32,000 nt of DNA from the NCBI RefSeq assembly GCF_000012465.1, contig NC_007335.2, positions 1,230,001-1,262,000 of the forward strand, read 5' to 3'. How positions within the stretch are numbered: position 1 is the stretch's first letter; each line of letters opens with the position of its first letter. The notes beneath the pieces were generated by a model that was not told where the DNA came from, ran no database searches, and was given only the letters and a program-made list of their open reading frames with translations. The DNA comes from Prochlorococcus marinus str. NATL2A. Its GTDB lineage: Bacteria > Cyanobacteriota > Cyanobacteriia > PCC-6307 > Cyanobiaceae. The translations under genes were made by a program, and so were the position numbers. Shown piece after piece: positions 3,746 to 24,431 of the stretch.

Positions 3746-6700
3746 TCAAAACAGGCCAGTCACCTCACTAAATAAAGCCTTATTCTCTAACGACTCAGCA
3801 AAACCTAATAACAATTCTCCTCTATTTTCTTGCCCACTGTCTAACTGCTCAACCCAATAATCATAACCACCTTGATCTGCATCTCTACCAAGAATATTTT
3901 TATATAGATTGTTCACATACGTTCCTGTGTCAACATCAGCTCCATAAGTAGATTTAAACTCTTCAGAACCTAAGAAAGAATCAGCTACTTGACGGTTACT
4001 ATTTTCACCAGACGAGTTTTTATCAATCCAATATTCAAGTCCATCAGAATCAGGGAATCTTGCAAAAGCAGCGTTGTAAACCCTAAACATTTGTCCCGTT
4101 GAATCATCTTTCGATTTCACCTGATCAAACGTCTCTTTAATATCGCTAATTCCACTAAAAGATTTATCATTAAACTCCAGTTTTGGAACGCCAGTAATAT
4201 CATCGAATCCATCCTCAGTCTTAACTTCTATTGTTCCATCTTCTCTTTTAAAGAATTTAAAGTCTTTACTATCACCCGTATATGTTTTAACAACATCTAG
4301 TTTAGAAACGTCTACCTTCTGATCGGCGAATTGAATATATTCGACATTCTTTAAAGTGTCATTTCCATCATTCAGTCCCTCTCTTTGATCTTGAATCGCA
4401 ACTGTATCTTTTGTTCGATCAAACTTATAATCAGCAAAATTTCCGGCATAGAACGCAACATCTTCTCCTTCTCCTCCATCAATAAAGTCTGACCCCAAGC
4501 CACCAAAAATCTTGTCAGAAGTCTCGCCTCCTTCCAATCTGTCATCACCGTCATCTTTACTCTTTACTAGCGACGCCCAATGGCTTGTCGAATCCAATTC
4601 AGCTCCATCTCCTTGGGGTTTCTTTAAATCATCAATTTCTTGCCATGGATAAGCGACTTCACTAATGGGTTTTTTATCTAAAGCAACTGCCGTTGGATCT
4701 AGAACTGTAGCGTCTTCTGTTCCAGATGTTGCTGCCTCTTTAATGGGATCCGTAGTCGCTCCCCAGTAACCCGCTGTTTTATTCGCCTCATTATCTAGTG
4801 ACGTATCAAAATGCTTGGCATCTGTCACCCAAGCACCATTAGTAGCCTGATACCCTCCTGCTGATTTGATTTCTTCCGCTGTAATCCCTTCTGGAATTGC
4901 AGGCTTTACTTCTCCTTCTGGTGCTTTCCATCCATCTTTCTCAAAATCTTCTGATTTCACCCATTGGCCAAATGGATCCCAAAAACCTCCATCAGTTTTA
5001 ATATCCGTCGCTGCAGGTGGTGCCCAGGCAACAGTTTGAGCATCCGCGCTTCCTTCTCCAAAATGAGCTACGGAAGAAACCCATTTTTTATCGGCATCAA
5101 AATATCCACCGTTCTTTTTAATTTCATCGGTTTCAGGAACAGTTCCCGTGTTATTCAAAAACTCCTTGGATGTGACCCACTTACCATTGGGGTTTCTAAA
5201 ACCACCATCTTTTTTAATCAATTCATCTGGAGGGACAGTCCATCCAGCTGATGATGGATCTTTGAAATAATCGTCTTCTTTAACAAACGTTCCATCAGAT
5301 TTTGTAAAGCCTCCTGATTTAGCAATTGCATCTGCTTCTGGTGGAGTCCAAACAGTCGTTTCTGCTGGTTTATCTCCAGTTGTTCGTTTGCCAAAGAAAG
5401 AATCTGCTGTCATCCATTCACCATCAGGTCCCCGTAGACCGCCTTCCCAGCGAATGATCTCGTCTTTTGGAAGCACCCAATTTTTAACTGCTGCCGCAGC
5501 ATCAGGTGCCATTTTTGCTAATTGATCCGGAGTAACCGCAGCAAATGATTCTGGATCAAGTTCTTTTAAGGTCTGACCTTTAAATCCAGCCATTGCTTCT
5601 GCGTCAAACGCTGCAATGTGCGTTGGATCAAATCCCTCCATCGCCAAGGGATCAAACGCTGCAATCTGATCTTTTCCAAAGCCTGCTACTGCAGTTGGGG
5701 CAAAGGATTTGAAATGATCTTTTCCTAGACCTGCCATGGCATTTGGATCAAATCCAGCGACCTGATCTTTTCCTAGCCCTGCCATCACGGTTGGATCAAA
5801 AGCTGCAACCTGCTCCTTTCCAAAGCCAGCCATTGCAGTTGGAGCGAAAGCCGCAACTTGATCTTTCCCAAATCCAGCCATCGCCATTGGATCAAATCCT
5901 GCAACTTGATCCTTTCCAAAGCCTGCCATTGCGGTTGGAGCGAAAGCCGCAACTTGATCTTTACCAAACCCGGCCATCGCCATTGGATCAAATCCTGCAA
6001 CTTGATCCTTACCAAAGCCTGCCATTGCAGTTGGATCAAACGCTGCTAAATGGTCTTTCCCAAAACCACCCATCGCAGTCGGATCAAATCCTGCAACTTG
6101 ATCTTTATCAAAAGCAGTCATTGCAGCAGTGTCAAAAGCCGCTAAATGGTCTTTTCCAAAACCACCCATCGCCTCCTTATCAAAGGATTTGAAATGATCT
6201 TTGCCTAAACCAGCCATCGCCATTGGATCAAATCCTGCAACTTGATCCTTACCAAAGCCTGCCATTGCAGTTGGATCAAACGCTGCTAAATGGTCTTTCC
6301 CAAAACCACCCATTGCAATCGGATCAAACGCTGCGACTTGATCCTTATCAAACGCTGCCATTGCAATTGGATCAAACGCTGCAACATGGTCTTTCCCAAA
6401 GCCACCCATCGCAGCATTATCAAAGGATTTGAAGTGATCTTTCCCTAATCCAGCCATCGCAGTTGGGTCAAATCCTGCTACTTGATCCTTACCAAAGCCT
6501 GCCATTGCAGTTGGATCAAACGCTGCCAAATGGTCTTTCCCAAAACCACCCATTGCAATCGGATCAAACGCTGCGACTTGATCCTTATCAAACGCTGCCA
6601 TTGCAGTTGGATCAAACGCTGCAACATGGTCTTTCCCAAAGCCACCCATCGCAGCATTATCAAAGGATTTGAAGTGATCTTTCCCTAATCCAGCCATCGC

Positions 6701-8377
6701 AGTTGGGTCAAATCCTGCTACTTGATCCTTACCAAAGCCTGCCATTGCAGTTGGATCAAATGCCGCTAAATGATCTTTTCCAAAACCTGCCATCGCAGTT
6801 GGATCAAATCCTGCAACTTGATCCTTATCAAACGCTGTCATTGCAGCAGTATCAAAAGCCGCTAAGTGATCTTTTCCAAAACCACCCATCGCGTCCTTAT
6901 CAAAGGATTTGAAGTGATCTTTCCCTAATCCAGCCATCGCATTTGGATCAAATCCTGCTACTTGGTCTTTACCTAGGCCTGACATAACAGTTGGATCAAA
7001 AGCCGCTAAATGGTCTTTACCAAAACCACCCATTGCAGTTGGATCAAATGCTGCAACTTGATCCTTACCAAAGCCCGCCATTGCAGTCGGATCAAATCCT
7101 GCAACTTGGTCTTTACCAAAGCCTGCCATTGCAGTTGGATCAAATGCTGCAACTTGATCCTTACCAAAACCACCCATCGCAGTCGGATCAAATCCTGCAA
7201 CTTGATCCTTACCAAAGCCCGCCATTGCAGTTGGATCAAAGGCCGCCATTTGGTCTTTGCCAAACCCTGCCATTGCTTTGGCATCAAAGGCTGCAACTTG
7301 ATCTTTTCCTAAACCTGCCATTGCAGTCGGATCAAATCCTGCAACTTGATCCTTACCAAAGCCTGCCATTGCAGTTGGATCAAATGCGGCCAATTGATCC
7401 TTACCAAAACCAGCCATTGCATTGGCATCAAAAGCCGCAACTTGATCTTTTCCTAATCCTTTAACTGCATTTGGATCAAATGCCGCAACCTGATCTTTTC
7501 CAAAGCCTGCCATCGCAGTCGGATCAAATGCTGCCATTTGATCTTTCCCAATTCCTCCAATGGCATTGGCATCAAAAGCAGCCACCTGATCCTTCTTGAA
7601 GCCAGCCATTGCTGTTGGATCAAATGCTGCCATTTGGTCTTTACCAAAACCGGCCATTGCATTGGCATCAAAAGCCGCAACTTGATCTTTTCCTAATCCT
7701 TTAACTGCATTTGGATCAAATGCCGCAACCTGATCTTTTCCAAAGCCTGCCATCGCAGTCGGATCAAATGCTGCCATTTGATCTTTCCCAATTCCTCCAA
7801 TGGCATCCTCACTAAAGGCTGAAGCTTGATTAACGTCAAAAGAGGCAAATTGATCTTTTGTAAAATTCCCCATTTGAGAGGCATCTACCTGTCCGGCAGC
7901 AATACCTCCTATTTGCCCTGCTTTCGTTGGGTCACCCTTAGGTCCTTCTGGCATGAAACCATGACCCATTGGAGGCGGGTTATCACCTCCACCTAGTTCT
8001 CCTTCAGGCTTTACGTCTGCACCTTTAGGAGATCTATCTTCGCCCATTGGAGGATTATCACCGCCGCCCATTGGAGGATTATCACCGCCGCCCATTGGAG
8101 GATTATCACCGCCGCCCATTGGAGGATTATCACCGCCGCCCATCGGGGGATTATTACCGCCACCGCCGCCCATTGGAGGATTATTGTCGCCGCCACCGCC
8201 GCCCATCGGGGGATTATTACCGCCACCGCCGCCCATTGGAGGATTATTGTCGCCGCCACCGCCCATTGGAGGATTATTGTCGCCGCCACCGCCGCCCATC
8301 GGGGGATTATTACCGCCACCGCCGCCCATCGGGGGATTATTACCGCCACCGCCGCCCATTGGAGGATGATTACTCAT
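3746..8377 (-). CDS. Giant modular repeat protein with C-terminal DUF4214-type module (putative secreted/surface protein)
   Basis: Single 1543-codon ORF. From N to C the modules are: 12 x PPMGGG(GG)(D)NN; about 48 x 16-aa FDPTAMAGFGKDQVAA; 6 x ~35-aa W..P..DEIKK.GGF....G.WV....F; one RTX-like Gly/Asp stretch (GGLGSDFIDGGEGED); a linker FKFFKREDGTIEVKTEDGFDDITGVPKLEFNDK; and a DUF4214-type pair ending LLGFAESLENKALFSEVTGLF. There is no N-terminal hydrophobic signal peptide. Confidence 0.9.
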   Translation of the reverse strand: MSNHPPMGGGGGNNPPMGGGGGNNPPMGGGGGDNNPPMGGGGDNNPPMGGGGGNNPPMGGGGGDNNPPMGGGGGNNPPMGGGDNPPMGGGDNPPMGGGDNPPMGGGDNPPMGEDRSPKGADVKPEGELGGGDNPPPMGHGFMPEGPKGDPTKAGQIGGIAAGQVDASQMGNFTKDQFASFDVNQASAFSEDAIGGIGKDQMAAFDPTAMAGFGKDQVAAFDPNAVKGLGKDQVAAFDANAMAGFGKDQMAAFDPTAMAGFKKDQVAAFDANAIGGIGKDQMAAFDPTAMAGFGKDQVAAFDPNAVKGLGKDQVAAFDANAMAGFGKDQLAAFDPTAMAGFGKDQVAGFDPTAMAGLGKDQVAAFDAKAMAGFGKDQMAAFDPTAMAGFGKDQVAGFDPTAMGGFGKDQVAAFDPTAMAGFGKDQVAGFDPTAMAGFGKDQVAAFDPTAMGGFGKDHLAAFDPTVMSGLGKDQVAGFDPNAMAGLGKDHFKSFDKDAMGGFGKDHLAAFDTAAMTAFDKDQVAGFDPTAMAGFGKDHLAAFDPTAMAGFGKDQVAGFDPTAMAGLGKDHFKSFDNAAMGGFGKDHVAAFDPTAMAAFDKDQVAAFDPIAMGGFGKDHLAAFDPTAMAGFGKDQVAGFDPTAMAGLGKDHFKSFDNAAMGGFGKDHVAAFDPIAMAAFDKDQVAAFDPIAMGGFGKDHLAAFDPTAMAGFGKDQVAGFDPMAMAGLGKDHFKSFDKEAMGGFGKDHLAAFDTAAMTAFDKDQVAGFDPTAMGGFGKDHLAAFDPTAMAGFGKDQVAGFDPMAMAGFGKDQVAAFAPTAMAGFGKDQVAGFDPMAMAGFGKDQVAAFAPTAMAGFGKEQVAAFDPTVMAGLGKDQVAGFDPNAMAGLGKDHFKSFAPTAVAGFGKDQIAAFDPLAMEGFDPTHIAAFDAEAMAGFKGQTLKELDPESFAAVTPDQLAKMAPDAAAAVKNWVLPKDEIIRWEGGLRGPDGEWMTADSFFGKRTTGDKPAETTVWTPPEADAIAKSGGFTKSDGTFVKEDDYFKDPSSAGWTVPPDELIKKDGGFRNPNGKWVTSKEFLNNTGTVPETDEIKKNGGYFDADKKWVSSVAHFGEGSADAQTVAWAPPAATDIKTDGGFWDPFGQWVKSEDFEKDGWKAPEGEVKPAIPEGITAEEIKSAGGYQATNGAWVTDAKHFDTSLDNEANKTAGYWGATTDPIKEAATSGTEDATVLDPTAVALDKKPISEVAYPWQEIDDLKKPQGDGAELDSTSHWASLVKSKDDGDDRLEGGETSDKIFGGLGSDFIDGGEGEDVAFYAGNFADYKFDRTKDTVAIQDQREGLNDGNDTLKNVEYIQFADQKVDVSKLDVVKTYTGDSKDFKFFKREDGTIEVKTEDGFDDITGVPKLEFNDKSFSGISDIKETFDQVKSKDDSTGQMFRVYNAAFARFPDSDGLEYWIDKNSSGENSNRQVADSFLGSEEFKSTYGADVDTGTYVNNLYKNILGRDADQGGYDYWVEQLDSGQENRGELLLGFAESLENKALFSEVTGLF
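5545..7860. repeat. 48-nt (16-codon) coding repeat array, about 48 units, with 240-nt higher-order periodicity
   Basis: ggatcaaa(t/c)gc(t/c)gc..-type units repeat every 48 nt. Blocks 6181-6420 and 6421-6660 differ by only a few bases. The start of 6661-6900 is identical to 6421. 7428-7565 is identical to 7668-7805 (240-nt offset). Confidence 0.9.
8040..8365. repeat. 27-36-nt coding repeats (PPMGGGGG(D)NN x12)
   Basis: cccattggaggattat(t)..caccgccgcc units read directly from the sequence. They generate the spurious track ORFs 8011..8349, 8047..8391 and 8184..8369 in other frames. Confidence 0.9.
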
Positions 8378-11084: not shown

Positions 11085-12440
11085 ATGAGTTCCTCAGCGC
11101 CTACCTTTACTATAAAAAATATATCTGATTCATCTTTATCTAATATTTTTTCTAAAGAACTTGATATTTTTGGACTAAAGGTTTTTGCAACAAGTGGTAC
11201 TTCTGATGAAGATATTATTCATGCTGGAAAAATATACGCTGAATATTTAGATAATAACAAAGATGGCATAGTAGACGATTCATTAGTCCTAGAAAAAATG
11301 ATCGCAAGTAAGGCTGTTTTAGGTATGACTAAAGATCAAAATGAAACAGACTCGTTAGATTTTGCCAGTCTTGAAAATTTAGGTTATCAAGTTCAAGATC
11401 TAAACGGAGTAGAAACAATTCAAAATTCATCAGAAATCAATAAATTTGATGCAACTTTAGAAGAAGTACTTCATCTGATTACAGACTATGGATATGGTAT
11501 GGCTTATTCAGAAGCATTTGCAACAAATCAGTTTCAAGGTTCTTTCTCTATAAATAATTCCTCATTATTAACTGAAGCAATGGATACTGCAAGAGGAGGC
11601 AAATTTCTAACGATTCCAACCTCCTACCCCTCATCAGCTTGGTACACGTTTTACGATGATACGGCAGATTATTCTACTCAAGCAACAGAATATTTTTATT
11701 GGGGGCTTACTTCAATATTAGGAGCCCAAAATTTTCCTGGTAGATATGAAGAAATAAAATCAGAATGGAAGTTAAATACAGCAGAGAAAGTAAAGGAAAC
11801 TGATTCTAAATTATATAATTTATTAACAGACTCTAAATATTCATTACCAACTAATATTCCTGATGGTAATTACTCAATAATTAGCAATTTAAAAACTTAT
11901 AACGGGGCTTTTAATGAATACACTTTTATCAATCAAGGAAATGATCAATATGGAATCAAGTTAGATTCTTCTTCAACAATAGACTCTTTAACTGGTCTTT
12001 CCACAGTTAAGTTTTCAGATAAGTCGGTCGATATCAATAAAGATGTTATTGGTACATTCAATCAAGTTACAGGGAAAGATGATGTCACTGGACGTATGTT
12101 TCGCCTATACAACGCTGCCTTTGCTCGTTTCCCTGATGCCGATGGTCTCAAATATTGGATCGATAAAAACGCTTCTGGAGAAAATAGCAATCGGGTGGTA
12201 GCTCAATCCTTTTTAGCTTCTGCTGAATTCGCTGAGCGTTATGGCAGTAATGTGACCAATGAGAAGTACGTCGAAACTCTTTATACAAATGTTTTAGGTC
12301 GAAACTCAGATATAGCTGGTTACAACTACTGGGTAGGCAATCTTAATAATGGCATCGAAACTCGATATGAAGCTCTCCTAGGTTTTGCTGAGTCAACAGA
12401 AAATAAAACTCTCTTTAGTGAAGTCACAGGCATAAATTAA
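11085..12440 (+). CDS. DUF4214-tagged protein with unknown ~230-aa N-terminal domain
   Basis: 451-aa ORF. The C-terminus is YTFINQGNDQYGIKLD..LTGLSTVKFSDK + MFRLYNAAFARFPDADGLKYWI... + LYTNVLGRNSDIAGYNYWVGNLNNG...LLGFAESTENKTLFSEVTGIN. The N-terminal domain is alignable by eye with the middle of 18028..19893 (LDIFGLKVFATSG / LDVYGLRLFAHGA; LEEVLHLITDYG / LEHLLHTFTDFA). Confidence 0.85.
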   Translation: MSSSAPTFTIKNISDSSLSNIFSKELDIFGLKVFATSGTSDEDIIHAGKIYAEYLDNNKDGIVDDSLVLEKMIASKAVLGMTKDQNETDSLDFASLENLGYQVQDLNGVETIQNSSEINKFDATLEEVLHLITDYGYGMAYSEAFATNQFQGSFSINNSSLLTEAMDTARGGKFLTIPTSYPSSAWYTFYDDTADYSTQATEYFYWGLTSILGAQNFPGRYEEIKSEWKLNTAEKVKETDSKLYNLLTDSKYSLPTNIPDGNYSIISNLKTYNGAFNEYTFINQGNDQYGIKLDSSSTIDSLTGLSTVKFSDKSVDINKDVIGTFNQVTGKDDVTGRMFRLYNAAFARFPDADGLKYWIDKNASGENSNRVVAQSFLASAEFAERYGSNVTNEKYVETLYTNVLGRNSDIAGYNYWVGNLNNGIETRYEALLGFAESTENKTLFSEVTGIN

Positions 12441-14948: not shown

Positions 14949-16352
14949 ATGTGCTTCATTTGCTCACAATCAGGAGGATTTGAAACAGATATTGCAACAG
15001 TTATCGGACTTGCAAAACATTCTAAGCTGTTGGTGAACAACACAGTCTCAAACGAAAATCAATCAAAGAATTATTTAACTAATCCTCAAAAATCAACTTC
15101 ATTTAAGCCAATAGATCCTAAATATCTGATTATGGGATACGCAGATGGACGAGATGAAATTGCTATTAGAAAAGAATATGCTGGAAGCAATAGGCAGATA
15201 AAAGTTTATTTATCAAATGGTGGAGATGAATTGATAGATATTAATCTTGGAGAATCTGAAAGAAAGAAATACTATTCATTAAAACCTGAAAATTGGCAAA
15301 AGTCATACGTAATTGATTCTCTTGAAAAAATAAATGAATTTATTGATATCGACTTAAAGCTAGTTAGTAAAAAAGATGAAGCTGACTATACAATTGTGAT
15401 ATCTCCTTTAGCCGATAATAACTTTCTCTCAGCAGACCCTGAAAGAGGGAAGAGTGGAAATGTACTGTCTGTAAGTTATCAATCTGGACTGTATACAACT
15501 GAAACTAATTTAGATGTCCTTGATCACACTGATTTCAGCAGAAAGATGCAAAAAGCAACTTTCGTTCATGAACTAGGACACTTACTTGGATTAGAGCACC
15601 CATTTGATTTGATTGATGATGATGTACTTGATCCGTATTATCCAGAAAACTTTTCCTATCTCAGGACTGAACCATTATTTCCTTATGAATTCACACTAAT
15701 GGGGTGGAATGGTAGCTATGTAGACAAAACGAGCTATGAAAATATTTGGTTCAGAAATGCCGATATTAAATCACTAGAAGTTATATGGGATAAATCAAAG
15801 GTTCAATCTTTTTCAGATAAGAGTTATGACTATAAGTTTTACAATCTAGGAAATGATAATTATGGAATCAAAGATGAATCTTCGGAAACGATAGACCCTC
15901 TCACCGGAATAGACCTTTTAAAATTTAATGATCAAAATTTAAATCTTATTAACGACATCAAAGCAACTTTCGATCAAGTCACAGGCTTAAATACAGACTC
16001 AGGGAAAATGTTCCGTCTATATAACGCCTCATTTAAACGTCTACCTGACCCTGATGGACTGCGTTATTGGATTGGTAATTTCAGCTCTGGTAAAGACGAC
16101 GAAAGAGCAGTGGCATCATCTTTTTTAGCCTCTGCTGAATTTAAACAACGTTATGGAGAAAACGTCTCGGATTCAACCTATGTGAATACTCTCTACAAAA
16201 ACGTTCTTGGTAGAGATGCTGATACTGGTGGATTGAATTATTGGTTAGGTCAACTTAATAGCGGAGCAGAAACTCGCTATGAGGTTCTTTTAGGTTTCTC
16301 TGAGTCAGCGGAAAACAAAGGACTGTTTACTGAAATGACTGGGTTCGGTTAA
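14949..16352 (+). CDS. Metzincin-type zinc metalloprotease fused to the DUF4214-type C-terminal module
   Basis: 467-aa ORF. HELGHLLGLEH (15567..15599) fits the HExxHxxGxxH metzincin zinc site. The C-terminus is YKFYNLGNDNYGIKDE..LTGIDLLKFNDQ + MFRLYNASFKRLPDPDGLRYWI... ending LLGFSESAENKGLFTEMTGFG. The start codon is uncertain and there is no signal peptide. Confidence 0.8.
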   Translation: MCFICSQSGGFETDIATVIGLAKHSKLLVNNTVSNENQSKNYLTNPQKSTSFKPIDPKYLIMGYADGRDEIAIRKEYAGSNRQIKVYLSNGGDELIDINLGESERKKYYSLKPENWQKSYVIDSLEKINEFIDIDLKLVSKKDEADYTIVISPLADNNFLSADPERGKSGNVLSVSYQSGLYTTETNLDVLDHTDFSRKMQKATFVHELGHLLGLEHPFDLIDDDVLDPYYPENFSYLRTEPLFPYEFTLMGWNGSYVDKTSYENIWFRNADIKSLEVIWDKSKVQSFSDKSYDYKFYNLGNDNYGIKDESSETIDPLTGIDLLKFNDQNLNLINDIKATFDQVTGLNTDSGKMFRLYNASFKRLPDPDGLRYWIGNFSSGKDDERAVASSFLASAEFKQRYGENVSDSTYVNTLYKNVLGRDADTGGLNYWLGQLNSGAETRYEVLLGFSESAENKGLFTEMTGFG

Positions 16353-16462: not shown

Positions 16463-17032
16463 TCATACAAGATTTTTAACCTCCACTGCGTTTAGAAAAG
16501 CTTCATTTAATGGCTCTAAAGAGCTGTTAGTCCAATCAGATAGAGCACTTCTCATGCCACAAGACCCATTCCTATAGGCATCTGTCATTTCTAAACCTGT
16601 TAATACATGATTTCCCAAGAGGAGTTCAAAGACTAGTTCAGGTTGACTATCATAATTACCAAGGCAAGTAGATAATTCTGCTAAAGCATCTTCCATAGAT
16701 AGTTTCTTTTTTATCCGATATAAATCAAACAGTTCTTTAGCCACCTCACCATATTTTTTTGCTCCACTATCAGAAAAAATAGTATTACTTTGCGTCGAGT
16801 TTTCTTCTTTATCAGAATGGAAATTATCTTTTAAATTCAGCAGTTTTTCTATTCTTAAGAGTCTCTGTTCAAGGATATCAATATCACTGGTTGCTTGAAT
16901 AGAACTTCGTTCTAACAGCTCAGAAACAAAAGCTGTTAGCGTTTTCCCACTCTTTATTGCCTTAGCCTTCACTTTAAGCAGGAGTTGCGGATCAATCTTG
17001 ATATTCAACTGAGACTTGTCTTCACTCTTCAT
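16463..17032 (-). CDS. Ribbon-helix-helix (CopG/Arc/MetJ-like) domain protein with uncharacterised C-terminal domain
   Basis: 189-aa ORF. The N-terminus LNIKIDPQLLLKVKAKAIKSGKTLTAFVSELLERS has the beta-strand/helix/helix pattern of RHH DNA-binding proteins. I do not recognise the remainder. Confidence 0.6.
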   Translation of the reverse strand: MKSEDKSQLNIKIDPQLLLKVKAKAIKSGKTLTAFVSELLERSSIQATSDIDILEQRLLRIEKLLNLKDNFHSDKEENSTQSNTIFSDSGAKKYGEVAKELFDLYRIKKKLSMEDALAELSTCLGNYDSQPELVFELLLGNHVLTGLEMTDAYRNGSCGMRSALSDWTNSSLEPLNEAFLNAVEVKNLV

Positions 17033-18027: not shown

Positions 18028-19893
18028 TCAGCCGAAGCCAGTCATTTCAGTGAAGAGAGCTTTATTTTCCGCTGATTCTGCAAAACCTAGTAGGACTTCG
18101 TATCTGGTTTCGGCTCCATTTCTCAAGTTCCCTACCCAATAGTCATAACCACCCTGGTCAAGTTCTCTATTAAGGACATTTATGTATAAGGTCTTGACGT
18201 ATTGATTGTCAGTGACGTTTTCTCCATATCGCAATTTAAACTCCTCACTTACGAGAAATGAAGAGGCAACAGTTCTTATATCATTTGCACCTGAACTAAA
18301 TTGCTCAATCCAGTAGGAAAGGCCACTTGCATCAGGAAAACGTCTAAAGGCTGCATTATATAAACGAAACATCCTTCCTGAGTCAGTATTTAAGCCTGTT
18401 ATTTGATCAAAAACACCTTTTACATCGTCAATAAAATCTAATGTCTTATCAACGAATTGAAGCGAGAATGATGAAAGTCCAGTCGAGTTAAAAGTATCAC
18501 TACTTGGAAAAAATTCTGTTTGAACTTTTCGACCTGTAATCTCATCAAAACTATCTTTAGCTTTTATTTGATAGTTATTATTACCTTTATTAATAAAATC
18601 ATAATTAATACTTTCACCCTTGAAAAGTACTCCTGTATCCTTATTAATTATTTTGGTATTATCAGTACTAGGGCTGCTTACATTTGAGACATAACCTGAC
18701 ATCCCAGAATCGTCATCCTTATAGATCTCTTCTAATCTTACACTTTCCGGCTTAGATATTACTTTTCTTATGTAATCATTATATAGTTGATGACCTAAAG
18801 GATTGGCCTGTTTAATACTTTCTTCTGTTAGATATTGATCTGACCACTCAGGATCTAAACTATAATCTTCTGTATATTTTGTTGTATAGCCCCACATAGC
18901 ATATGTAAGACAATAGAGGTATTCTCGCATTACGACCGATTTATATACATCTTTATATTGAGGATGATTTTTTCCAATCATATGTTTGTAGTCTTTATCG
19001 TCATAGACACCATTATTTATAGCTTCATTAGCAGCATCCCAAAGCAATCCTTTCCCTTGAAAAGTATTAAATTGTTCAGGGAAGGCACCTGGCAAGGCAA
19101 AGTCAGTGAAAGTATGAAGTAAGTGCTCTAGTTGTTGTGTTATTTGATACCTTTGAATAGGTGTGTGATTTAATTTCCAAGTGTAATCATTAGAATTATA
19201 TAAATCATTTATTTCATCATAGCCTTTAGGTCCGTCATTTAAACTTGGATTCTGATAGGCACTATGTGTATTAATTCCAATTCTTTGGATTGTACTTTTA
19301 GATTTCATATATTGAAGAGCTTTTTCTTGTGCTTCTTTATCGATAAACTCTCCATTTGGATTAAACATCAATTTAACTGTTTCAGCGGTTTTTTTGATGA
19401 ACTCATCGTCTACAGCGGGTAGTCCACTAAGAGCTCCATGTGCAAATAGTCTTAATCCATAAACATCAAGGTATTTTTCCCAAACTCCAAATGTTTCATT
19501 TGTAGAAACAACATCTCCACTTGCATAAGAGCTATTAATTTTCTGCAAAGAATTTCCCATAAAGGAATGATTCTTGCATTGATAAAACAACTTAATTGAA
19601 GTTTCAGCAGGAAGAGTTATCTCCGTATAAGCTCCTTCAGAGCCGGCGATACCACTATTAATTACATTGCTATTGAAGGTGCTTAATTTTTCTGAATCCT
19701 TATAAAATAATATTTGATGACCAAGATTACTAATATCGGATTGATCAAATCTATAAGTAACACCAGAGAGTAAGCTTAAACTTGGTGACTCTATTCCATT
19801 AATAAAATAGCCTTTTGCAGAACCTTTATTGCTATAAATATGATTGCTTGTTTTGAGATTTACAGTTACTACTTTATTGACTACCTTTGGCAT
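18028..19893 (-). CDS. DUF4214-tagged protein with N-terminal cupredoxin-like domain and the unknown ~230-aa domain shared with 11085..12440
   Basis: 621-aa ORF. H59 ... FYQC106KNH109SFM112G matches the amicyanin-style type-1 copper pattern H...C-x2-H-x2-M. The C-terminus is YDFINKGNNNYQIKAKDSFDEITG...LQFVDK + MFRLYNAAFRRFPDASGLSYWI... ending LLGFAESAENKALFTEMTGFG. Confidence 0.85.
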   Translation of the reverse strand: MPKVVNKVVTVNLKTSNHIYSNKGSAKGYFINGIESPSLSLLSGVTYRFDQSDISNLGHQILFYKDSEKLSTFNSNVINSGIAGSEGAYTEITLPAETSIKLFYQCKNHSFMGNSLQKINSSYASGDVVSTNETFGVWEKYLDVYGLRLFAHGALSGLPAVDDEFIKKTAETVKLMFNPNGEFIDKEAQEKALQYMKSKSTIQRIGINTHSAYQNPSLNDGPKGYDEINDLYNSNDYTWKLNHTPIQRYQITQQLEHLLHTFTDFALPGAFPEQFNTFQGKGLLWDAANEAINNGVYDDKDYKHMIGKNHPQYKDVYKSVVMREYLYCLTYAMWGYTTKYTEDYSLDPEWSDQYLTEESIKQANPLGHQLYNDYIRKVISKPESVRLEEIYKDDDSGMSGYVSNVSSPSTDNTKIINKDTGVLFKGESINYDFINKGNNNYQIKAKDSFDEITGRKVQTEFFPSSDTFNSTGLSSFSLQFVDKTLDFIDDVKGVFDQITGLNTDSGRMFRLYNAAFRRFPDASGLSYWIEQFSSGANDIRTVASSFLVSEEFKLRYGENVTDNQYVKTLYINVLNRELDQGGYDYWVGNLRNGAETRYEVLLGFAESAENKALFTEMTGFG

Positions 19894-20173: not shown

Positions 20174-22015
20174 TCAGCCTAAGCCAGTCATATCAGTAAA
20201 GAGAGTTTTATTCTCTGCTGATTCTGCAAACCCTAATAGAAGTTCACTTCTATCCTCTACGCCATTATTAAGTTGTCCAACCCAGTAGTCATATCCCTCT
20301 GCATCTGGTTCTCGATCAAGAATATTTTGATAAAGCGTTTTTACATATTGTTCATTTGAGACATTTTCTCCATATTTTTCTTTGAATTCAGAGGAGGCTA
20401 AAAATGATTCTGCTACTTGCCTTTCAGTATTTTCTCCTGATCCATTTTTTTCAATCCAGTACTCAAGTCCATCAGAATCAGGGAACCGATTAAAGGCAGC
20501 GTTATAGACGCGAAACATCTTTCCTGTGACATCATCTTTTGCTTTGACTTGATCAAAGGTTGCTTCTATTTCAGCAATGGCACTCACTGCTTTATCGGCA
20601 AATTGAAGTTTTGGGATACCAGTGATTTCATCAAAACCTTCTTCTGTTTTGATTTCAATGGATCCATCACTTCTTCTGAAGAACTCATATTCTTCTAATT
20701 CTTTTTCAAAAGTTTTAGATGTATTCAGTTTAGTTGGATCTACCCAACGATCATCAATATCGACTACTGGGTCGAGCCAATCTGGATAATCTTTTGGTCT
20801 ACGAGTGGCGGCTATATGACCTTTATAGTTAAACCCTTCAGGAATTGCAGAACCAATCTCTTTTTCTATTAATTCATATTCTTTGGTTCCTTCTTTAGGC
20901 ATCTCTAAAGGAGCATTCAGTAAATAAACTGGCGATATTGTGTTGCCTAACGCATCTGTCCCTTCATAAATAAGTGATTTAGTTTCTTCCTCTTTAGTTA
21001 TCGTCGAGTCTCCATCGATAATATTGGGCATGTATAAAAGATTATCCTGATTAGTTCTGTTGCCTGCATATCCAGCAGTATCGGCATATTTCGCTGATCG
21101 TGGATCATCATCCGCGAATAGAACTTGTCCGGTTGCAGCCATATGGGCTTCATAATCAAATCCGTCATTAGCTGCTGCACCATCTGTTTGCTCTAAAAGT
21201 TGTTGATAGCCAAGTGTTCCTTTTAAGGGTGCAATTAATTCTCCTCCACTTTTTACTTCAGCAATAAATACTGGAAGCATTGGATCTTTTAGATCTGATT
21301 CTGGGATTGCATTTGGTCTATATAAAAGATCATCTTGATTAGCTCTGTTGCCTGCATATCCAGCAGTATCGGCATATTTTGCTGATCGTGGATCATCATC
21401 CGCAAATAGAACTTGTCCGGTTGCAGCCATATGAGCTTCATAATCAAATCCGTCATTAGCTGCTGCACCATCTGTTTGCTCTAAAAGTTGTTGATAGCCA
21501 AGTGTTCCTTTTGGGGGTGCAATTAATTCTCCTCCACTTTTTACTTCAGCAATAAATACTGGAAGCATTGGATCTTTTATTCTGATTCCCTCAATTGAAT
21601 CAGGAGTAGAAGTTGAATCTGAAGTGGGAGTTGGATCTGGAGTGGGAGTTGGATCTGGAGTGGGAGTTGGATCTGGAGTGGAAGTTGGATCTGGAGTGGA
21701 TGAAGATTCCTCTATGTTGGGCATGTATAACAGGTCATCTTGATTAGCTCTGTTACCTGCATATCCAGGAGCATCGGCATATTCAGCTGATCGTGGATCA
21801 TCATCTGCAAATAAAACTTGTCCGGTTGCAGCCATATGAGCTTCATAATCAAATCCTTCATTAGCTGCTGCACCACCTGTTTGCTCTAAAAGTTGTTGAT
21901 AGCCAAGTGTTCCTTTTGGGGGTGCAATTAATTCTCCTCCACTTTTTACTTCAGCAATAAATACTGGAAGCATTGGGTCTTTTGCTTTTGGAGAAGAGAT
22001 ATTTTCGTTGGTCAT
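20174..22015 (-). CDS. DUF4214-tagged protein with three tandem ~96-aa modules; inverted paralogue of 12524..14626
   Basis: 613-aa ORF. It has three copies of KDPMLPVFIAEVKSGGELIAPPKGTLGYQQLLEQT.GAAAN(E/D)GFDYEAHMAATGQVLFADDDPRSA.YAD, and a (T/S)PDP linker after the first copy. The last ~220 aa are nearly identical to the C-terminus of 12524..14626. Confidence 0.9.
   Translation of the reverse strand: MTNENISSPKAKDPMLPVFIAEVKSGGELIAPPKGTLGYQQLLEQTGGAAANEGFDYEAHMAATGQVLFADDDPRSAEYADAPGYAGNRANQDDLLYMPNIEESSSTPDPTSTPDPTPTPDPTPTPDPTPTSDSTSTPDSIEGIRIKDPMLPVFIAEVKSGGELIAPPKGTLGYQQLLEQTDGAAANDGFDYEAHMAATGQVLFADDDPRSAKYADTAGYAGNRANQDDLLYRPNAIPESDLKDPMLPVFIAEVKSGGELIAPLKGTLGYQQLLEQTDGAAANDGFDYEAHMAATGQVLFADDDPRSAKYADTAGYAGNRTNQDNLLYMPNIIDGDSTITKEEETKSLIYEGTDALGNTISPVYLLNAPLEMPKEGTKEYELIEKEIGSAIPEGFNYKGHIAATRRPKDYPDWLDPVVDIDDRWVDPTKLNTSKTFEKELEEYEFFRRSDGSIEIKTEEGFDEITGIPKLQFADKAVSAIAEIEATFDQVKAKDDVTGKMFRVYNAAFNRFPDSDGLEYWIEKNGSGENTERQVAESFLASSEFKEKYGENVSNEQYVKTLYQNILDREPDAEGYDYWVGQLNNGVEDRSELLLGFAESAENKTLFTDMTGLG
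20990..21990. repeat. 288-nt tandem coding repeats (3 copies; the third is offset by a TPDP-coding 12-nt microrepeat at about 21601..21700)
   Basis: gggtgcaattaattctcctccactttttacttcagcaataaatactggaagcattgg recurs at 21227, 21515 and 21920. Confidence 0.85.
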
Positions 22016-22572: not shown

Positions 22573-22583
22573 GGGGTTAATCA

Positions 22584-24431
22584 TTGGCAACTTTTACTTG
22601 GACTGCGAAAGGAAATCAAGGTGCTACTTATGATGGGACTTTCCCAAGTCATTACAAGAAAGCTCAAGACAATTATTACGCGGGAAATCTAACGGTACTC
22701 TCTGAGAGTTTATTAGCTAATGGAAAGATTTCCTATTATATTTCTGGTAATTACAATTTAGATCTTGACTATAAAAATGTCAAATATAATGAACAAACAG
22801 GAACTATTTCTTATAATGGATACACTTTCGAATTAAAACAATATGGGAATCATATTGGCACTGGCGAAGCAGATGGCTATTTTGTTGAAAATCTATATGA
22901 TTTAAGCACAATTGGCTACCTGAATAAAGACAAGACATACTATTCAGAGACGGGAGTTGAAGAAGTAATAACCGGCACATTTGACTATGAAAAAATAGGC
23001 GAAAGTTTAAGCTCTCAAAGGACATATTATATAAGTGGAGATGATACATTTAATGGGAGTAAGAAAGATGATAAATTATATTCAGGGCTTGGAAACGATA
23101 TTATTTATGGGAACGAAGGTAATGATACGTTAAAAGGTGAATCAGGCTCAGATATCATTAAAGGAGGTGATGGCTTTGATAATATTTATGGAGGAACAGG
23201 AAATGATAGTCTCCACGGTAATGATGGCAATGATTATATTGATGGAGGCAGTGGTACTGATGTTGCCAATTATGAAGGAAACTTCAGCGACTATTCTTTT
23301 GTACAAGATGGTTCAAATTTAAAAGTTATTGATAACAGAATCGGCAAAGACAAATGGACTGACACTCTTGTATCAATCGAATTATTAGATTTCTTAGATA
23401 AAAAGTCAGTAACTCCTGTCAATGCACAAACCCTGCAAAATTCTGCTCAAGTTAATACTAGTCCTGACAATACATCTACCACTAATAGTGATACGTCTAA
23501 TTCAAACAACCTATCAAATCCAAACAATGCAACTTCAAGAGAATTACAACAACTATACATAGCTTATTTTAGTCGACCTAGTGACCCTTCAGGTTTAAAT
23601 TACTGGACAGAAAAGGGGATTAGTAGAAGTGCTTTCGCTGCCAATATGTACTTACAACCGGAATTTAAAGATGTAAATGGAAACCTATCTGTAGAAGCCC
23701 AAGTCAATCAAATCTATTTAAATTTATTTAATCGATCAGGTGATGTAGCCGGACTAACCTATTGGTCAAATCAAATAAATAATGGTTCCTTGCAACTTGC
23801 ATCGATTGCTAATGATCTTATTTGGGCAGCTGAAAACAATCCGGGAGGTTCTAGCGATTCAAAAACTCTTACTAATAAAACTGAAGCTGCAATTGCCTAT
23901 ACAGCAAAGCTCTCTTCGACTACTTCAGGAATACTTTCTTATCAACCTCAATCAACGAGTCCTTGGATTTCAGGCAAAATTTTCGAAGAGGCTAAATCTT
24001 TCATCTCGGAAATAAATCAATACACTACACATACTTCATCGAGTATTGAAAATAGTATTAGTAGGTTTGACAGCCTATCTTCATCAAGCAACTTCAAACT
24101 TTTAATTGATCCAAAGTTGAACAAAACAGACACAATCACTGGGATAGGCGTTCAAACTACAGAGACTAAAGCTTTTGAAGATACTTTTAGTGGACTGAAT
24201 TTAAACTCATCAGATCTCTTTGAAAACCACTCATCGCAAGATACAGATCACCATGATTTCGTATCTCATTTACATGAAGAAGTTCTTGATAGAAAGCCTG
24301 ATTCTATTGGCATGAACTATTGGCAAGGTCAACTTAATAGCGGAGCTGAAACTCGATACGAAATTCTTCTTGGTTTCTCTGACTCAAACGAGAACTTAGG
24401 ACTCTTTACTGAGATGACAGGGTTGGGCTAA
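22584..24431 (+). CDS. RTX (hemolysin-type Ca-binding) repeat protein with an internal DUF4214-like domain and a truncated C-terminal tag
   Basis: 615-aa ORF. TTG is the first possible start after an in-frame TAA, and there is no in-frame ATG for more than 150 codons. Nonapeptide run: GNDIIYGNEGNDTLKGESGSDIIKGGDGFDNIYGGTGNDSLHGNDGNDYIDGGSGTD. Internal domain: LQQLYIAYFSRPSDPSGLNYW. The C-terminus is only the second half repeat, VLDRKPDSIGMNYWQGQLNSGAETRYEILLGFSDSNENLGLFTEMTGLG. Confidence 0.8.
   Translation: MATFTWTAKGNQGATYDGTFPSHYKKAQDNYYAGNLTVLSESLLANGKISYYISGNYNLDLDYKNVKYNEQTGTISYNGYTFELKQYGNHIGTGEADGYFVENLYDLSTIGYLNKDKTYYSETGVEEVITGTFDYEKIGESLSSQRTYYISGDDTFNGSKKDDKLYSGLGNDIIYGNEGNDTLKGESGSDIIKGGDGFDNIYGGTGNDSLHGNDGNDYIDGGSGTDVANYEGNFSDYSFVQDGSNLKVIDNRIGKDKWTDTLVSIELLDFLDKKSVTPVNAQTLQNSAQVNTSPDNTSTTNSDTSNSNNLSNPNNATSRELQQLYIAYFSRPSDPSGLNYWTEKGISRSAFAANMYLQPEFKDVNGNLSVEAQVNQIYLNLFNRSGDVAGLTYWSNQINNGSLQLASIANDLIWAAENNPGGSSDSKTLTNKTEAAIAYTAKLSSTTSGILSYQPQSTSPWISGKIFEEAKSFISEINQYTTHTSSSIENSISRFDSLSSSSNFKLLIDPKLNKTDTITGIGVQTTETKAFEDTFSGLNLNSSDLFENHSSQDTDHHDFVSHLHEEVLDRKPDSIGMNYWQGQLNSGAETRYEILLGFSDSNENLGLFTEMTGLG

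What the first reader, a model, noticed from the sequence alone, without database searches (positions are those of the whole stretch)
3746..24431. Multigene family defined by a constant C-terminal tag (linker + DUF4214 pair + invariant end) with swappable N-terminal passengers and no signal peptides
Six complete genes within 21 kb (3746..8377, 11085..12440, 12524..14626, 14949..16352, 18028..19893, 20174..22015) end in the same module. It has three parts: a ~45-aa Y.F...G...IK....D.(I/L)TG...L.F.DK linker; two DUF4214-type half repeats (MFR(L/V)YNA(A/S)F.R.PD..GL.YWI and LY.N(I/V)L.R..D..G..YW(V/L).(Q/N)L..G); and a nearly invariant extreme C-terminus LLGF(A/S)ES.ENK.LF(T/S)(E/D)(M/V)TG followed by two variable residues. 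A seventh gene, 22584..24431, carries only the second half repeat and the same end motif, with no recognisable linker next to it. The passengers are unrelated: 16-aa repeat solenoid-like arrays, a metzincin site, a cupredoxin-like site, RTX nonapeptides, 3-4 copies of an unknown ~100-aa module, and an unknown ~230-aa domain. None begins with a hydrophobic Sec/Tat-type signal. One member (22584..24431) has a clear run of RTX Gly/Asp nonapeptides, and a second (3746..8377) has a single weaker Gly/Asp stretch; such repeats are typical of type I secretion substrates, whose signal is C-terminal. DUF4214 has no established function. Hypothesis: the tag is an export and/or surface-attachment signal, conceptually like T1SS C-terminal signals, T9SS CTDs or PEP-CTERM, and the island is a shuffling ground for passengers. 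Island-encoded surface genes are known to set phage susceptibility in Prochlorococcus (Avrani et al. 2011).
Basis: partly seen in the sequence, partly recalled or inferred. Interest (0 to 1): 0.8.

Follow-up and report, generated by a model that had tools for sequence, protein, structure and literature searches.

The report
Prochlorococcus secreted-protein family, shared DUF4214 tail
Seven neighbouring Prochlorococcus genes put unrelated protein "passengers" on one conserved C-terminal module, which most likely directs type I secretion and holds the proteins on the cell's sugar coat; this is a lineage-specific variant of a system just described in Pseudomonas.

Summary
All seven ORFs exist at the stated coordinates. 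Each hits Pfam DUF4214 (E 1e-32 to 1e-40). None has a signal peptide or TM helix, and all are acidic and nearly Cys-free.

Six share a ~170-aa composite tag that is 50-63% identical (g3/g6 89%): a small beta domain, two 4-helix DUF4214 repeats, and the tail F(T/S)(E/D)MTG(F/L)x. An AF2 model has pLDDT 96; its only solved-structure relatives are phycobilisome-linker domains.

The tag is Prochlorococcus-wide, with 1-7 genes per genome. Its passengers are extracellular-type: RTX, cadherin, proteases, lectins.

The window holds no secretion genes; its HlyD-like gene is an RND adaptor. An assembly carrying the same island does encode, on another contig, a conserved cluster: Wzm / Wzt / secA | gmd / metzincin+tag (a paralog of g4) / rotamase / HlyB-type ABC with a Cys-less C39-like domain / HlyD-type MFP / large DUF4214 protein / glycosyltransferases. 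The Wzt-like polysaccharide-export ATPase carries a DUF4214-type module at its N-terminus, and the same module lies inside g7.

Best reading: these are T1SS substrates whose DUF4214 module binds surface polysaccharide. This matches the 2026 Psh preprint (an RTX-DUF4214 protein, T1SS-exported, proposed to bind O-antigen). The T9SS and PEP-CTERM analogies fail. Export and glycan binding are inferred, not shown.

The parts
3746..8377 (-). g1, 1543 aa. N-terminal NNPPMGGGGG repeats; about 39 copies of a 16-aa repeat (Pfam ALTTAQ_rpt); a short RTX stretch at aa 1275-1307 (nt 4457-4555); tag at aa 1375-1543 (nt 3749-4255).
11085..12440 (+). g2, 451 aa. Unknown ~280-aa passenger, weakly related to part of g5. 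Tag at aa 282-451 (nt 11928-12437). Its last 185 aa were modelled.
12524..14626 (+). g3, 700 aa. Four to five copies of a ~100-aa module shared with g6. Tag at aa 531-700 (nt 14114-14623).
14949..16352 (+). g4, 467 aa. Metzincin passenger with HELGHLLGLEH at aa 207-217 (nt 15567-15599). Tag at aa 297-467 (nt 15837-16349). Full-length paralog of the metzincin+tag gene that lies next to the T1SS ABC/MFP elsewhere in the genome.
18028..19893 (-). g5, 621 aa. N-terminal cupredoxin-like site (CKNHSFM, aa 106-112), seen by eye only, plus an unknown domain. Tag at aa 432-621 (nt 18031-18600), with a 20-aa insertion in the beta-linker.
20174..22015 (-). g6, 613 aa. Three to four copies of the g3-type module and a TPDP-rich spacer. 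Tag at aa 445-613 (nt 20177-20683), 89% identical to the g3 tag.
22584..24431 (+). g7, 615 aa (TTG start). RTX nonapeptides at aa 151-234 (nt 23034-23285). Internal DUF4214-type module at aa 297-497 (nt 23472-24074): 56% identical to the N-terminus of the T1SS-adjacent 1037-aa protein and 34% identical to the N-terminal extension of the Wzt-like ATPase. C-terminal half-DUF4214 plus tail at aa 543-615 (nt 24210-24428).
1..2249 (-). N-terminal 749 aa of a 1821-aa protein carrying the same 16-aa repeats as g1. A possible eighth member; its C-terminus lies outside the window.
   Evidence: not resolved

Best explanation
The seven genes encode type I secretion substrates that end up on, or are released from, the Prochlorococcus cell surface.

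The constant C-terminal module does two jobs.

1. Export. The last helices and the short acidic/hydrophobic tail, F(T/S)(E/D)MTG(F/L)x, act as the uncleaved C-terminal signal. That signal is read by a HlyB-type ABC transporter whose C39-like domain lacks the catalytic Cys (plus a cNMP-binding domain in orthologs). The ABC works with a HlyD-type membrane-fusion protein, both encoded elsewhere in the genome, and a TolC-like channel. T1SS substrates leave C-terminus first, so the compact DUF4214 helical domain would fold first outside the cell. In the five members that lack RTX repeats it could take over the Ca-RTX role as a folding nucleus and anti-backsliding plug.

2. Retention. The DUF4214 pair binds a cell-surface polysaccharide of O-antigen type, holding the variable passenger on the cell. 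Passengers include proteases, adhesin-like repeats and RTX.

Shown here:
- the domain calls and the conservation of the tag;
- the absence of Sec/Tat signals and the substrate-like composition;
- the extracellular-type passengers;
- conserved adjacency of a same-tag paralog to the ABC/MFP;
- a DUF4214-type module on the Wzt-like ATPase.

Inferred:
- actual export and which residues form the signal;
- glycan binding and retention versus release;
- any effect on phage or grazers.
For: Family and substrate properties:
- DUF4214 is present in all seven genes, and RTX in g7 and g1.
- None of the 7 window proteins, and none of 86 diverse representatives with the full tag at the extreme C-terminus, has a signal peptide or TM helix. 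All window proteins are net acidic, as are 85 of the 86 representatives; window proteins have 0-2 Cys and representatives 0-5.
- Passengers in those 86 are extracellular types: RTX 19, cadherin 9, Calx-beta 4, Peptidase_M10 4, RCC1 3, plus trypsin, subtilase, C-type lectin, FG-GAP and PPIases.
- The tags are old paralogs kept by purifying selection: third-codon identity 42-56% against 60-72% amino-acid identity. Tag DNA has uniform GC (36-38%) while passengers range 31-47%.

Link to a T1SS:
- In L078 (GCA_047285905.1, the assembly that also holds the identical g2-g6 island as L003), in L093 (XMU1403) and in L068 (AG-402-P18), the gene order is gmd / metzincin+full tag / ~60-aa ORF / PPIC rotamase / ABC / MFP.
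- The ABC scores 719.8 bits against TIGR01846 type_I_sec_HlyB (cutoff 725.6). This is its best family, ahead of the bacteriocin and NHLP exporters.
- No Cys is conserved between the L078 and L068 ABCs in their C39-like region, so it is a CLD as in RTX exporters.
- The MFP's best family is TIGR01843 type_I_hlyD.
- g4 is 34% identical over 418 aa (E 6e-61) to the T1SS-adjacent metzincin+tag protein.

Link to surface glycan:
- The Wzt/RfbE/TagH-like ATPase next to a Wzm-like permease carries an N-terminal DUF4214-type module in three genomes.
- That module is 34% identical over 173 aa to the inside of g7.
- The cluster is embedded among GDP-mannose dehydratase, epimerase and glycosyltransferase genes.

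Literature:
- Psh, an RTX-DUF4214 protein of P. putida, needs a restored T1SS for export and phage resistance, and is proposed to bind O-antigen (bioRxiv 10.64898/2026.09.02.748959).
- DUF4214 proteins are found in Serratia spent medium.
- RsaA and Sap of Caulobacter are T1SS-exported and LPS-anchored (PMC3034196).

C-terminal position and motif:
- 136 of the best 150 representatives have their last DUF4214 within 25 aa of the C-terminus.
- Non-Prochlorococcus relatives commonly end in a GI(E/D)(F/Y)V-type acidic-plus-hydrophobic motif.
Against: - There is no T1SS gene in the window. The only HlyD-family gene (25807..26880) is an RND adaptor: TIGR01730 at 180.7 bits, above its cutoff.
- Only 1 of the 71 tag loci fetched has the ABC within 10 kb.
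- The ABC (719.8 vs 725.55 bits) and the MFP (143.8 vs 208.65 bits) both fall below the NCBIfam T1SS cutoffs.
- MIT0801 keeps the small-ORF / rotamase / ABC / MFP core without an adjacent tag gene, and a freshwater picocyanobacterial MAG keeps the rotamase / ABC / MFP part. The transporter's primary substrate could therefore be something else.
- Five of the seven proteins lack RTX repeats.
- AF2 places the extreme C-terminus in an ordered helix packed into a very confident domain (pLDDT 96). Classical T1SS signals are flexible, and substrates must stay unfolded in the cytoplasm.
- DUF4214-type modules also occur N-terminally (1037-aa protein) and on a cytoplasmic ATPase (Wzt). The domain as such is therefore not an export signal.
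- O-antigen binding by Psh rests on modelling plus indirect assays in a preprint.
- The presence of TolC was not tested here.
- No Prochlorococcus proteomic evidence was found.
Confidence: 0.55

Rival explanations
1. Anchor only. The DUF4214 tag is purely a surface-glycan or S-layer binding module. The proteins leave the cell by some route other than the HlyB-type T1SS, for example outer-membrane vesicles or another ABC exporter. The adjacency of one paralog to the ABC/MFP would then be incidental, or hold for that paralog alone.
For: - The DUF4214-type module occurs at N-termini and on the Wzt-like ATPase, so it is a binding module rather than a signal.
- 70 of the 71 tag loci have no T1SS gene nearby.
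- MIT0801 has the transporter without the adjacent tag gene.
- A MsbA/HepA-like 611-aa ABC exporter recurs ~5 kb from the conserved 595-aa member in at least 10 loci.
Against: - No signal peptide is present in any of 93 proteins examined, so a Sec-independent one-step route is needed.
- The tag sits at the extreme C-terminus in 186 of 263 retrieved relatives, with a near-invariant tail. A pure binding domain would not need that position.
- RTX repeats are present in 19 of 86.
- Psh export depends on a T1SS.
Confidence: 0.2
2. Signal and fold-nucleus only. The tag is a T1SS secretion and extracellular-folding module with no anchoring role, and the proteins are released as free exoenzymes and adhesins.
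For: - Proteases, lipase-like and PPIase passengers could act in solution.
- DUF4214 proteins are detected in Serratia spent medium.
- The tag is a compact, very confidently folded domain at the end that emerges first.
Against: - The Wzt fusion and the N-terminal position of the module in an S-layer-like protein point to a binding function independent of export.
- Psh protects only the producing cell, with no cross-protection, which implies retention.
- Many passengers are adhesin or cell-surface types such as cadherin and Calx-beta.
Confidence: 0.15
3. Intracellular role. Because the DUF4214 pair has a phycobilisome-linker-like fold, the tag docks these proteins to phycobiliprotein-like or other cytoplasmic partners, and they are never exported.
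For: The only solved-structure matches are phycobilisome linker domains, and they are weak: E 6e-3, TM 0.35-0.46. A DUF4214-type module sits on a cytoplasmic ATPase.
Against: - There is no sequence match to PF00427 or to any PDB chain.
- Passengers are RTX, cadherin, Calx-beta, secreted-type proteases and lectins.
- The proteins are Cys-poor and acidic.
- Synteny is with T1SS and glycan genes.
- DUF4214 is common in non-photosynthetic bacteria: 34,989 representatives.
Confidence: 0.04

Closest known systems
Psh (PP_1794) of Pseudomonas putida KT2440 with its AprD/HlyD/OMF type I secretion system (bioRxiv 10.64898/2026.09.02.748959, Sept 2026)
   Same: - DUF4214 lies at the C-terminal end of a protein without a signal peptide.
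- Export depends on a T1SS.
- The locus sits next to O-antigen and glycan genes.
- The protein is retained on the producing cell, and a phage-receptor masking role is proposed.
- The authors already note DUF4214 proteins with peptidase, cadherin, Ig-like and S-layer cargo in many bacteria.
   Different: - Psh is a single RTX-DUF4214 protein. Here a lineage-specific composite tag (beta-linker, DUF4214 pair, FTEMTGFG tail) is shared by 1-7 paralogs per genome. Most lack RTX and lie in genomic islands far from the transporter.
- The transporter here is a HlyB-type ABC of ~980 aa with a C39-like domain (plus a cNMP-binding domain in orthologs), not the shorter PrtD/AprD type.
- That preprint states that linkage to T1SS/O-antigen genes was not seen outside Gammaproteobacteria. 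Here it is seen in a cyanobacterium.
- Nothing has been tested experimentally in Prochlorococcus.
Caulobacter crescentus RsaA S-layer protein and Sap protease, with the RsaD/RsaE T1SS (reviewed in PMC3034196)
   Same: - Secretion is by T1SS through an uncleaved C-terminal signal.
- A separate module anchors the protein to smooth LPS.
- Sap combines a metalloprotease with the S-layer protein's anchoring region. This parallels g4 (metzincin + tag) and g7 (RTX + the N-terminal module of the S-layer-like 1037-aa protein).
   Different: - The RsaA anchor is N-terminal and is not DUF4214.
- Here anchor and signal are fused in one C-terminal cassette that is reused on many passengers.
Serralysin-type metalloproteases (AprA/PrtA) with the AprDEF/PrtDEF T1SS
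   Same: - A metzincin HExxHxxGxxH protease is encoded beside its ABC and MFP.
- A C-terminal acidic-plus-hydrophobic end motif is present.
- Some family representatives hit Peptidase_M10 and Peptidase_M10_C.
   Different: - g4 scores only 20.6 bits against NCBIfam Zn_serralysin (cutoff 500), so it is not a serralysin.
- It has no RTX beta-roll. The C-terminal domain is helical DUF4214.
Wzt carbohydrate-binding domain of O-antigen ABC transporters (E. coli O9a, Aquifex aeolicus). This comparison rests on my own knowledge, not on a tool result.
   Same: An extra domain on the ATPase subunit of a Wzm/Wzt-type polysaccharide exporter. In the known systems it recognises the capped glycan.
   Different: The known Wzt CBD is a C-terminal beta-sandwich. 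Here the extra module is N-terminal, helical and DUF4214-type. Its binding function is only inferred.
Phycobilisome linker domain (PF00427; e.g. PDB 3osj, 2ky4)
   Same: It is the only solved fold resembling the DUF4214 pair. According to the Psh preprint's InterPro listing, CATH places both in 1.10.3130.20.
   Different: The similarity is weak (TM 0.35-0.46, 14-25% identity), with no sequence-level match. The biological context is entirely different.

Membership tests
DUF4214 (Pfam PF13946) | Match to the Pfam model above the gathering score (23.2 bits) | tested here: met
   All seven proteins score 110-136 bits, covering the full 72-position model at the C-terminus. g7 also has an internal copy.
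Type I secretion substrate | No N-terminal Sec/Tat signal and no TM segment | tested here: met
   By hydropathy scan only, since no SignalP was available. Best 12-aa KD mean is <=1.22 in the 7 window proteins and <=1.65 in 86 relatives.
Type I secretion substrate | Uncleaved secretion signal within the last ~60 residues | not testable with these tools
   A conserved extreme C-terminus exists (logo from 186 proteins). Whether it functions as a signal needs fusion or deletion experiments.
Type I secretion substrate | Cognate ABC transporter and membrane-fusion protein in the same genome, typically linked to a substrate gene | tested here: met
   L078 comes from GCA_047285905.1, the assembly that also carries the island (L003). 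It has metzincin+tag / rotamase / HlyB-type ABC / HlyD-type MFP. The same order is seen in L093 and L068. Caveats: both transporter proteins score just or well below the NCBIfam T1SS cutoffs, and the window's own assembly was not itself retrieved.
Type I secretion substrate | TolC-like outer-membrane channel present | not tested
TolC-dependent protein secretion is documented in other cyanobacteria (PMC7459746).
RTX protein family | Tandem GGxGxD nonapeptide repeats upstream of the C-terminal signal | tested here: not met
   Met by g7 (five motifs, Pfam E 1.3e-19) and marginally by g1 (two motifs, E 1.2e-5). Absent from g2-g6. Across relatives, 19 of 86 have RTX. The family as a whole is therefore not RTX.
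Psh-type RTX-DUF4214 phage shield | N-terminal RTX domain with C-terminal DUF4214, next to T1SS and O-antigen genes; binds O-antigen and blocks phage | tested here: inconclusive
   The architecture is met only by g7 and g1. T1SS/glycan linkage is seen for paralogs elsewhere in the genome, not for the window genes. Binding and phage effects cannot be tested here.
T9SS C-terminal domain (CTD) cargo | ~80-100-aa beta-sandwich CTD plus an N-terminal Sec signal, in organisms with a T9SS | tested here: not met
   The tag is a 50-aa beta unit followed by nine helices. There is no Sec signal.
PEP-CTERM / exosortase cargo | C-terminal PEP motif, TM helix and basic cluster, plus an N-terminal signal peptide | tested here: not met
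   The proteins end in ...LFTEMTGFG. There is no hydrophobic helix (best 19-aa KD <=1.13) and no signal peptide.
Serralysin (NCBIfam NF035945) - for g4 | Score above the family cutoff (500 bits); M10 catalytic domain plus RTX beta-roll | tested here: not met
   g4 scores 20.6 bits. Pfam Peptidase_M10 (17.9 bits) and Reprolysin_3 (19.1 bits) are below cutoff. Only the HExxHxxGxxH motif is present.
Phycobilisome linker (PF00427) | Sequence match to PF00427 | tested here: not met
   No Pfam or PDB sequence hit. There is only weak fold similarity.

The most novel reading that the evidence does not exclude
The DUF4214-type module is a glycan 'address label' used on both sides of the envelope.
- On the Wzt ATPase it selects the cell's own surface polysaccharide for export.
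- On T1SS-exported proteins it re-binds that same polysaccharide outside the cell.

Prochlorococcus would then have a modular, plug-in surface-display system. Island-encoded passengers (proteases, adhesin-like repeats, PPIases) could be swapped without changing export or anchoring. Tag and glycan would co-evolve under phage and grazer pressure. In the members that lack RTX, the C-terminal helical domain would replace Ca-RTX as the extracellular folding ratchet of type I secretion.
Probability: 0.3. Interest if true: 0.8.

Novelty: new variant of a known kind. Interest (0 to 1): 0.58.

Why it matters
Prochlorococcus is the most abundant photosynthetic cell in the ocean. Its genomic islands are thought to control phage and grazer susceptibility, yet most island genes are 'hypothetical'.

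This result assigns a whole island, and a family of 1-7 genes per genome across the genus, to one testable route: type I secretion followed by glycan anchoring.

It also points to a specific transporter locus and a specific polysaccharide exporter as partners. It extends the very recent Psh result (a T1SS-exported DUF4214 protein that shields phage receptors) from one Pseudomonas protein to a modular multigene system in a cyanobacterium.

The Wzt-DUF4214 fusion gives the first independent genomic hint that DUF4214 is a glycan-binding domain. DUF4214 has about 35,000 representative clusters in public data and is still officially of unknown function.

The tag could also serve as a secretion and display handle for picocyanobacterial biotechnology.

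Tried and rejected
- **Window HlyD-family gene (25807..26880) as the T1SS partner.** Rejected: NCBIfam calls it an RND adaptor (TIGR01730, 180.7 bits, above cutoff), and it scores below cutoff for type_I_hlyD.
- **Recurring 611-aa ABC exporter ~5 kb from the conserved 595-aa member.** It is a generic MsbA/HepA-like exporter, below all cutoffs, with no MFP beside it. I did not treat it as the secretion system.
- **Recent gene conversion or shuffling between tags.** Not supported: the longest identical DNA runs are 11-23 nt (53 nt for g3/g6) and third positions are near saturation.
- **T9SS CTD and PEP-CTERM analogies.** Rejected on structure and hydropathy.
- **Retrieving the C-terminus of the 1821-aa neighbour.** All three attempts failed:
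  - the psbA look-up returned other psbA copies;
  - the exact g1 protein is not on record;
  - a 50-nt pattern found nothing in metagenome contigs.
- **Cyanophage carriage of the tag.** None was found in IMG/VR. BFVD has a few generic DUF4214 phage and giant-virus proteins.
- **Breadth of the Wzt N-terminal module.** The word-indexed search returned only 10 hits, so it says little about breadth.
- **Literature.** I found no Prochlorococcus proteomic data for these proteins and no paper naming DUF4214 in Prochlorococcus.
- **Linker as a post-RTX cap.** The resemblance of the ~45-aa linker to the post-RTX 'Y.F...D.L..IE.L.F.D' segment of g1 and g7 is visual only; the HMM hit has i-E 9.1.

Full report
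**What is there**

The window is a Prochlorococcus chromosome segment. Identical copies of g2-g6 lie on 1.84-Mb contigs of NATL2A-type assemblies. The flanks are core genes: psbA, ychF, polA and cysS.

Each ends in a Pfam DUF4214 domain, E 4.7e-32 to 3e-40.

Six of them (g1-g6) share a ~170-aa cassette with 68 invariant positions. Pairwise identity is 50-63%, and 89% for g3/g6. The seventh, g7, has only the second DUF4214 half-repeat and the tail at its end. A six-frame HMM scan finds no further copies in the window.

None of the seven has a signal-peptide-like or TM segment. All are acidic, with 0-2 cysteines.

RTX repeats are clear in g7 and marginal in g1. g4 has a metzincin HExxHxxGxxH site.

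The passengers are mostly unrelated. The exceptions are g3/g6 (shared module), g1/g7 (RTX region) and a weak g2/g5 match.

**Anatomy of the tag**

An AlphaFold2 model of the last 185 aa of g2, built with 126 aligned relatives, is very confident: pLDDT 96, pTM 0.90. It shows:
- one connecting helix;
- two four-helix repeats, which are the DUF4214 pair;
- a tail that forms part of the last helix.

The only solved structures resembling it are phycobilisome linker domains, and only weakly: Foldseek E 6e-3, TM 0.35-0.46. No PDB chain matches by sequence.

Most of the 'invariant extreme C-terminus' is the last helix of the Pfam model. Only ~7 residues, (T/S)(E/D)(M/V)TG(F/L)x, lie beyond it.

Tag-coding DNA has uniform GC (36-38%), while passengers range from 31 to 47%. 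Third-codon identity between tags is only 42-56%. The tags are therefore old paralogs held by purifying selection, not products of recent gene conversion.

**Distribution**

A profile of the tag finds 34,989 representative clusters at E<=1e-3 and 2,632 at E<=1e-30 in 1.84 billion proteins, so DUF4214 is very widespread.

Among the best 150 representatives, 86 carry the complete Prochlorococcus-type cassette at the extreme C-terminus. A scan of species-representative genomes with tag-specific patterns returned 71 loci. All are Prochlorococcus, apart from one 'Pelagibacter' MAG contig that is probably misbinned. Each genome has 1-7 distinct tag genes.

Those 86 representatives again lack signal peptides and are acidic and Cys-poor. 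Their passengers are extracellular types:

| Passenger family | Members of 86 |
|---|---|
| RTX | 19 |
| Cadherin | 9 |
| Calx-beta | 4 |
| Peptidase_M10 | 4 |
| RCC1 | 3 |
| Trypsin, FKBP, FG-GAP, C-type lectin | 2 each |
| Subtilase, cyclophilin | 1 each |

It comes out in favour of an extracellular role.

In more distant DUF4214 proteins the domain is also almost always terminal: 136 of the best 150 have it within 25 aa of the end. It is commonly followed by an acidic-plus-hydrophobic end motif of the GI(E/D)(F/Y)V type. From my own knowledge, this recalls the terminal motif of PrtDEF/AprDEF-type T1SS substrates.

**Link to a secretion system**

The window contains no T1SS gene. Its HlyD-family gene (25807..26880) is an RND adaptor by NCBIfam.

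Among the fetched tag loci, however, one (L068) has a ~980-aa ABC exporter 1.1 kb downstream of a tag gene. That ABC scores 719.8 bits on TIGR01846 type_I_sec_HlyB (cutoff 725.6), which is its best family.

Its NATL2A ortholog (P0331) lies on GCA_047285905.1, the same assembly that carries the identical island (L003). The locus there has this conserved order:

Wzm / Wzt-like ATPase / secA | GDP-mannose dehydratase / 392-aa metzincin with the complete tag / 60-aa ORF / PPIC rotamase / ABC / MFP / (-) 606-aa and 1037-aa proteins / epimerase / glycosyltransferases.

The same order from Wzt to the MFP occurs in XMU1403 and AG-402-P18.

Further details of this locus:
- No Cys is conserved between the L078 and L068 ABCs in their C39-like region. 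It therefore resembles the substrate-binding CLD of RTX exporters, not a bacteriocin-leader peptidase.
- The MFP's best family is type_I_hlyD, although below cutoff.
- g4 in the window is a full-length paralog of the T1SS-adjacent metzincin+tag protein: 34% identity over 418 aa, E 6e-61.

Caveats:
- MIT0801 lacks the tag gene at this position, and a freshwater picocyanobacterium keeps the rotamase-ABC-MFP core. The transporter may therefore have other substrates.
- TolC was not checked.

**Link to surface glycan**

The 459-aa Wzt/RfbE/TagH-like ATPase sits beside a Wzm-like permease. It carries an N-terminal ~175-aa DUF4214-type module in three genomes.

The same module forms the N-terminus of the T1SS-adjacent, S-layer-like 1037-aa protein. 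It is 56% identical to the inside of g7; the Wzt version is 34% identical.

So DUF4214 is not in itself an export signal, since it occurs on a cytoplasmic ATPase. In known Wzm/Wzt systems the ATPase's extra domain recognises the polysaccharide to be exported (my own knowledge). The fusion therefore suggests that DUF4214 binds that glycan.

This fits three lines of literature:
- the Psh preprint, where a P. putida RTX-DUF4214 protein needs a restored T1SS for export, protects only the producer from phage, and is proposed to bind O-antigen;
- DUF4214 proteins in Serratia spent medium;
- the Caulobacter RsaA/Sap precedent of T1SS export plus LPS anchoring.

**Most likely mechanism**

These are T1SS substrates. 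The C-terminal end of the cassette serves as the uncleaved signal, and the DUF4214 pair serves as a glycan anchor. I put T1SS export at roughly 0.7, glycan anchoring at roughly 0.45, and both together at about 0.55.

T1SS substrates exit C-terminus first. The compact helical domain could therefore also replace Ca-RTX as the first-folding extracellular element in the RTX-less members. This last point is inference.

Rivals are anchor-only, signal-only and an intracellular role. They are listed separately, with their refuting experiments.

**Comparison and novelty**

The general kind is now known: a C-terminal DUF4214 on T1SS-exported, surface-retained proteins (Psh). New here are:
- a lineage-specific composite cassette;
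- its reuse on a multigene, mostly RTX-free family concentrated in Prochlorococcus genomic islands;
- T1SS/glycan-gene linkage outside Gammaproteobacteria, which the preprint did not find;
- the Wzt fusion.

No open-access paper mentions DUF4214 or PF13946 in Prochlorococcus. I therefore rate this a new variant of a known kind. Interest is moderate to high for marine microbiology, but everything rests on genomic inference.

Noticed in passing
window 1-2249 (-): N-terminal 749 aa of a 1821-aa protein (length taken from other assemblies). It has PPSGDPGY-type repeats, Ala-rich repeats and the same 16-aa AAFDPTAMAGFGKD(Q/H) repeats as g1, in DNA of 47-49% GC within a ~35% GC genome. Whether it ends in the tag is unknown.
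   Followed up: partly
window 2579-3661 (+); L089, L091, L092: A psbA copy sits between the two giant repeat proteins. In other LLI-clade genomes the identical PsbA protein borders differently filled islands. Those islands contain other DUF4214 genes, TPR-sulfotransferase genes and glycosyltransferases, so this is a hypervariable island next to psbA.
   Followed up: partly
L004-L006 versus window 12524-14626 and 20174-22015; L001/L002 versus window 3746-8377: Other assemblies and metagenomes show repeat-number variants. g3 is 700, 698 or 356 aa; g6 is 613, 418 or 322 aa; g1 is 1543, 1538 or 1536 aa. This could be real copy-number variation of passenger modules or assembly collapse.
   Followed up: no
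L078 2178-3557 (-); L068 3771-5153 (-); L093 1-535 (-): A Wzt/RfbE/TagH-like polysaccharide-export ATPase with an N-terminal ~175-aa DUF4214-type module, next to a Wzm-like permease and secA. This places a DUF4214 domain on a cytoplasmic protein.
   Followed up: partly
L078 8996-10004 (+); L093 6011-7004; L094 6061-6980: A conserved ~60-aa ORF (weak DUF6447 hit) and a PPIC-type rotamase without a signal peptide always precede the HlyB-type ABC, even where no tag gene is adjacent. They may be an accessory or chaperone pair, or an alternative substrate, of this T1SS.
   Followed up: no
L078 14486-19432 (-): Adjacent 1037-aa and 606-aa Thr/Gly/Asp-rich proteins downstream of the MFP. The first has an N-terminal DUF4214-type module and RTX-like GGxGxD motifs. 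This may be one S-layer-like gene split in two. XMU1403 has a single 1859-aa DUF4214+RTX gene at this position (L093).
   Followed up: no
L024 8705-10492 (+), and 595-aa ORFs in at least 10 other loci: A conserved 595-aa family member (cadherin-like + cyclophilin PPIase + RTX + tag) recurs across many Prochlorococcus single-cell genomes. It lies ~5 kb from a 611-aa MsbA/HepA-like ABC exporter and a glycosyltransferase.
   Followed up: partly
BFVD hits A0A6J7WLN3, A0A6J7WVP4, A0A3G5A8A4: DUF4214-fold proteins occur in uncultured Caudovirales and giant viruses. No Prochlorococcus-type tag was found in IMG/VR contigs.
   Followed up: no
window 9666-10637 (-), 8698-9696 (+), 16463-17032 (-): A TPR-repeat protein and two ORFs with no Pfam hit (332 aa and 189 aa) are interspersed among the tag genes. 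A 45-aa ORF called in other assemblies (L001 16405-16542) recurs next to psbA in other strains.
   Followed up: no
window 25807-26880 (+): The HlyD-family gene flanking the island is an RND-type periplasmic adaptor with no transporter partner beside it; polA follows directly.
   Followed up: yes
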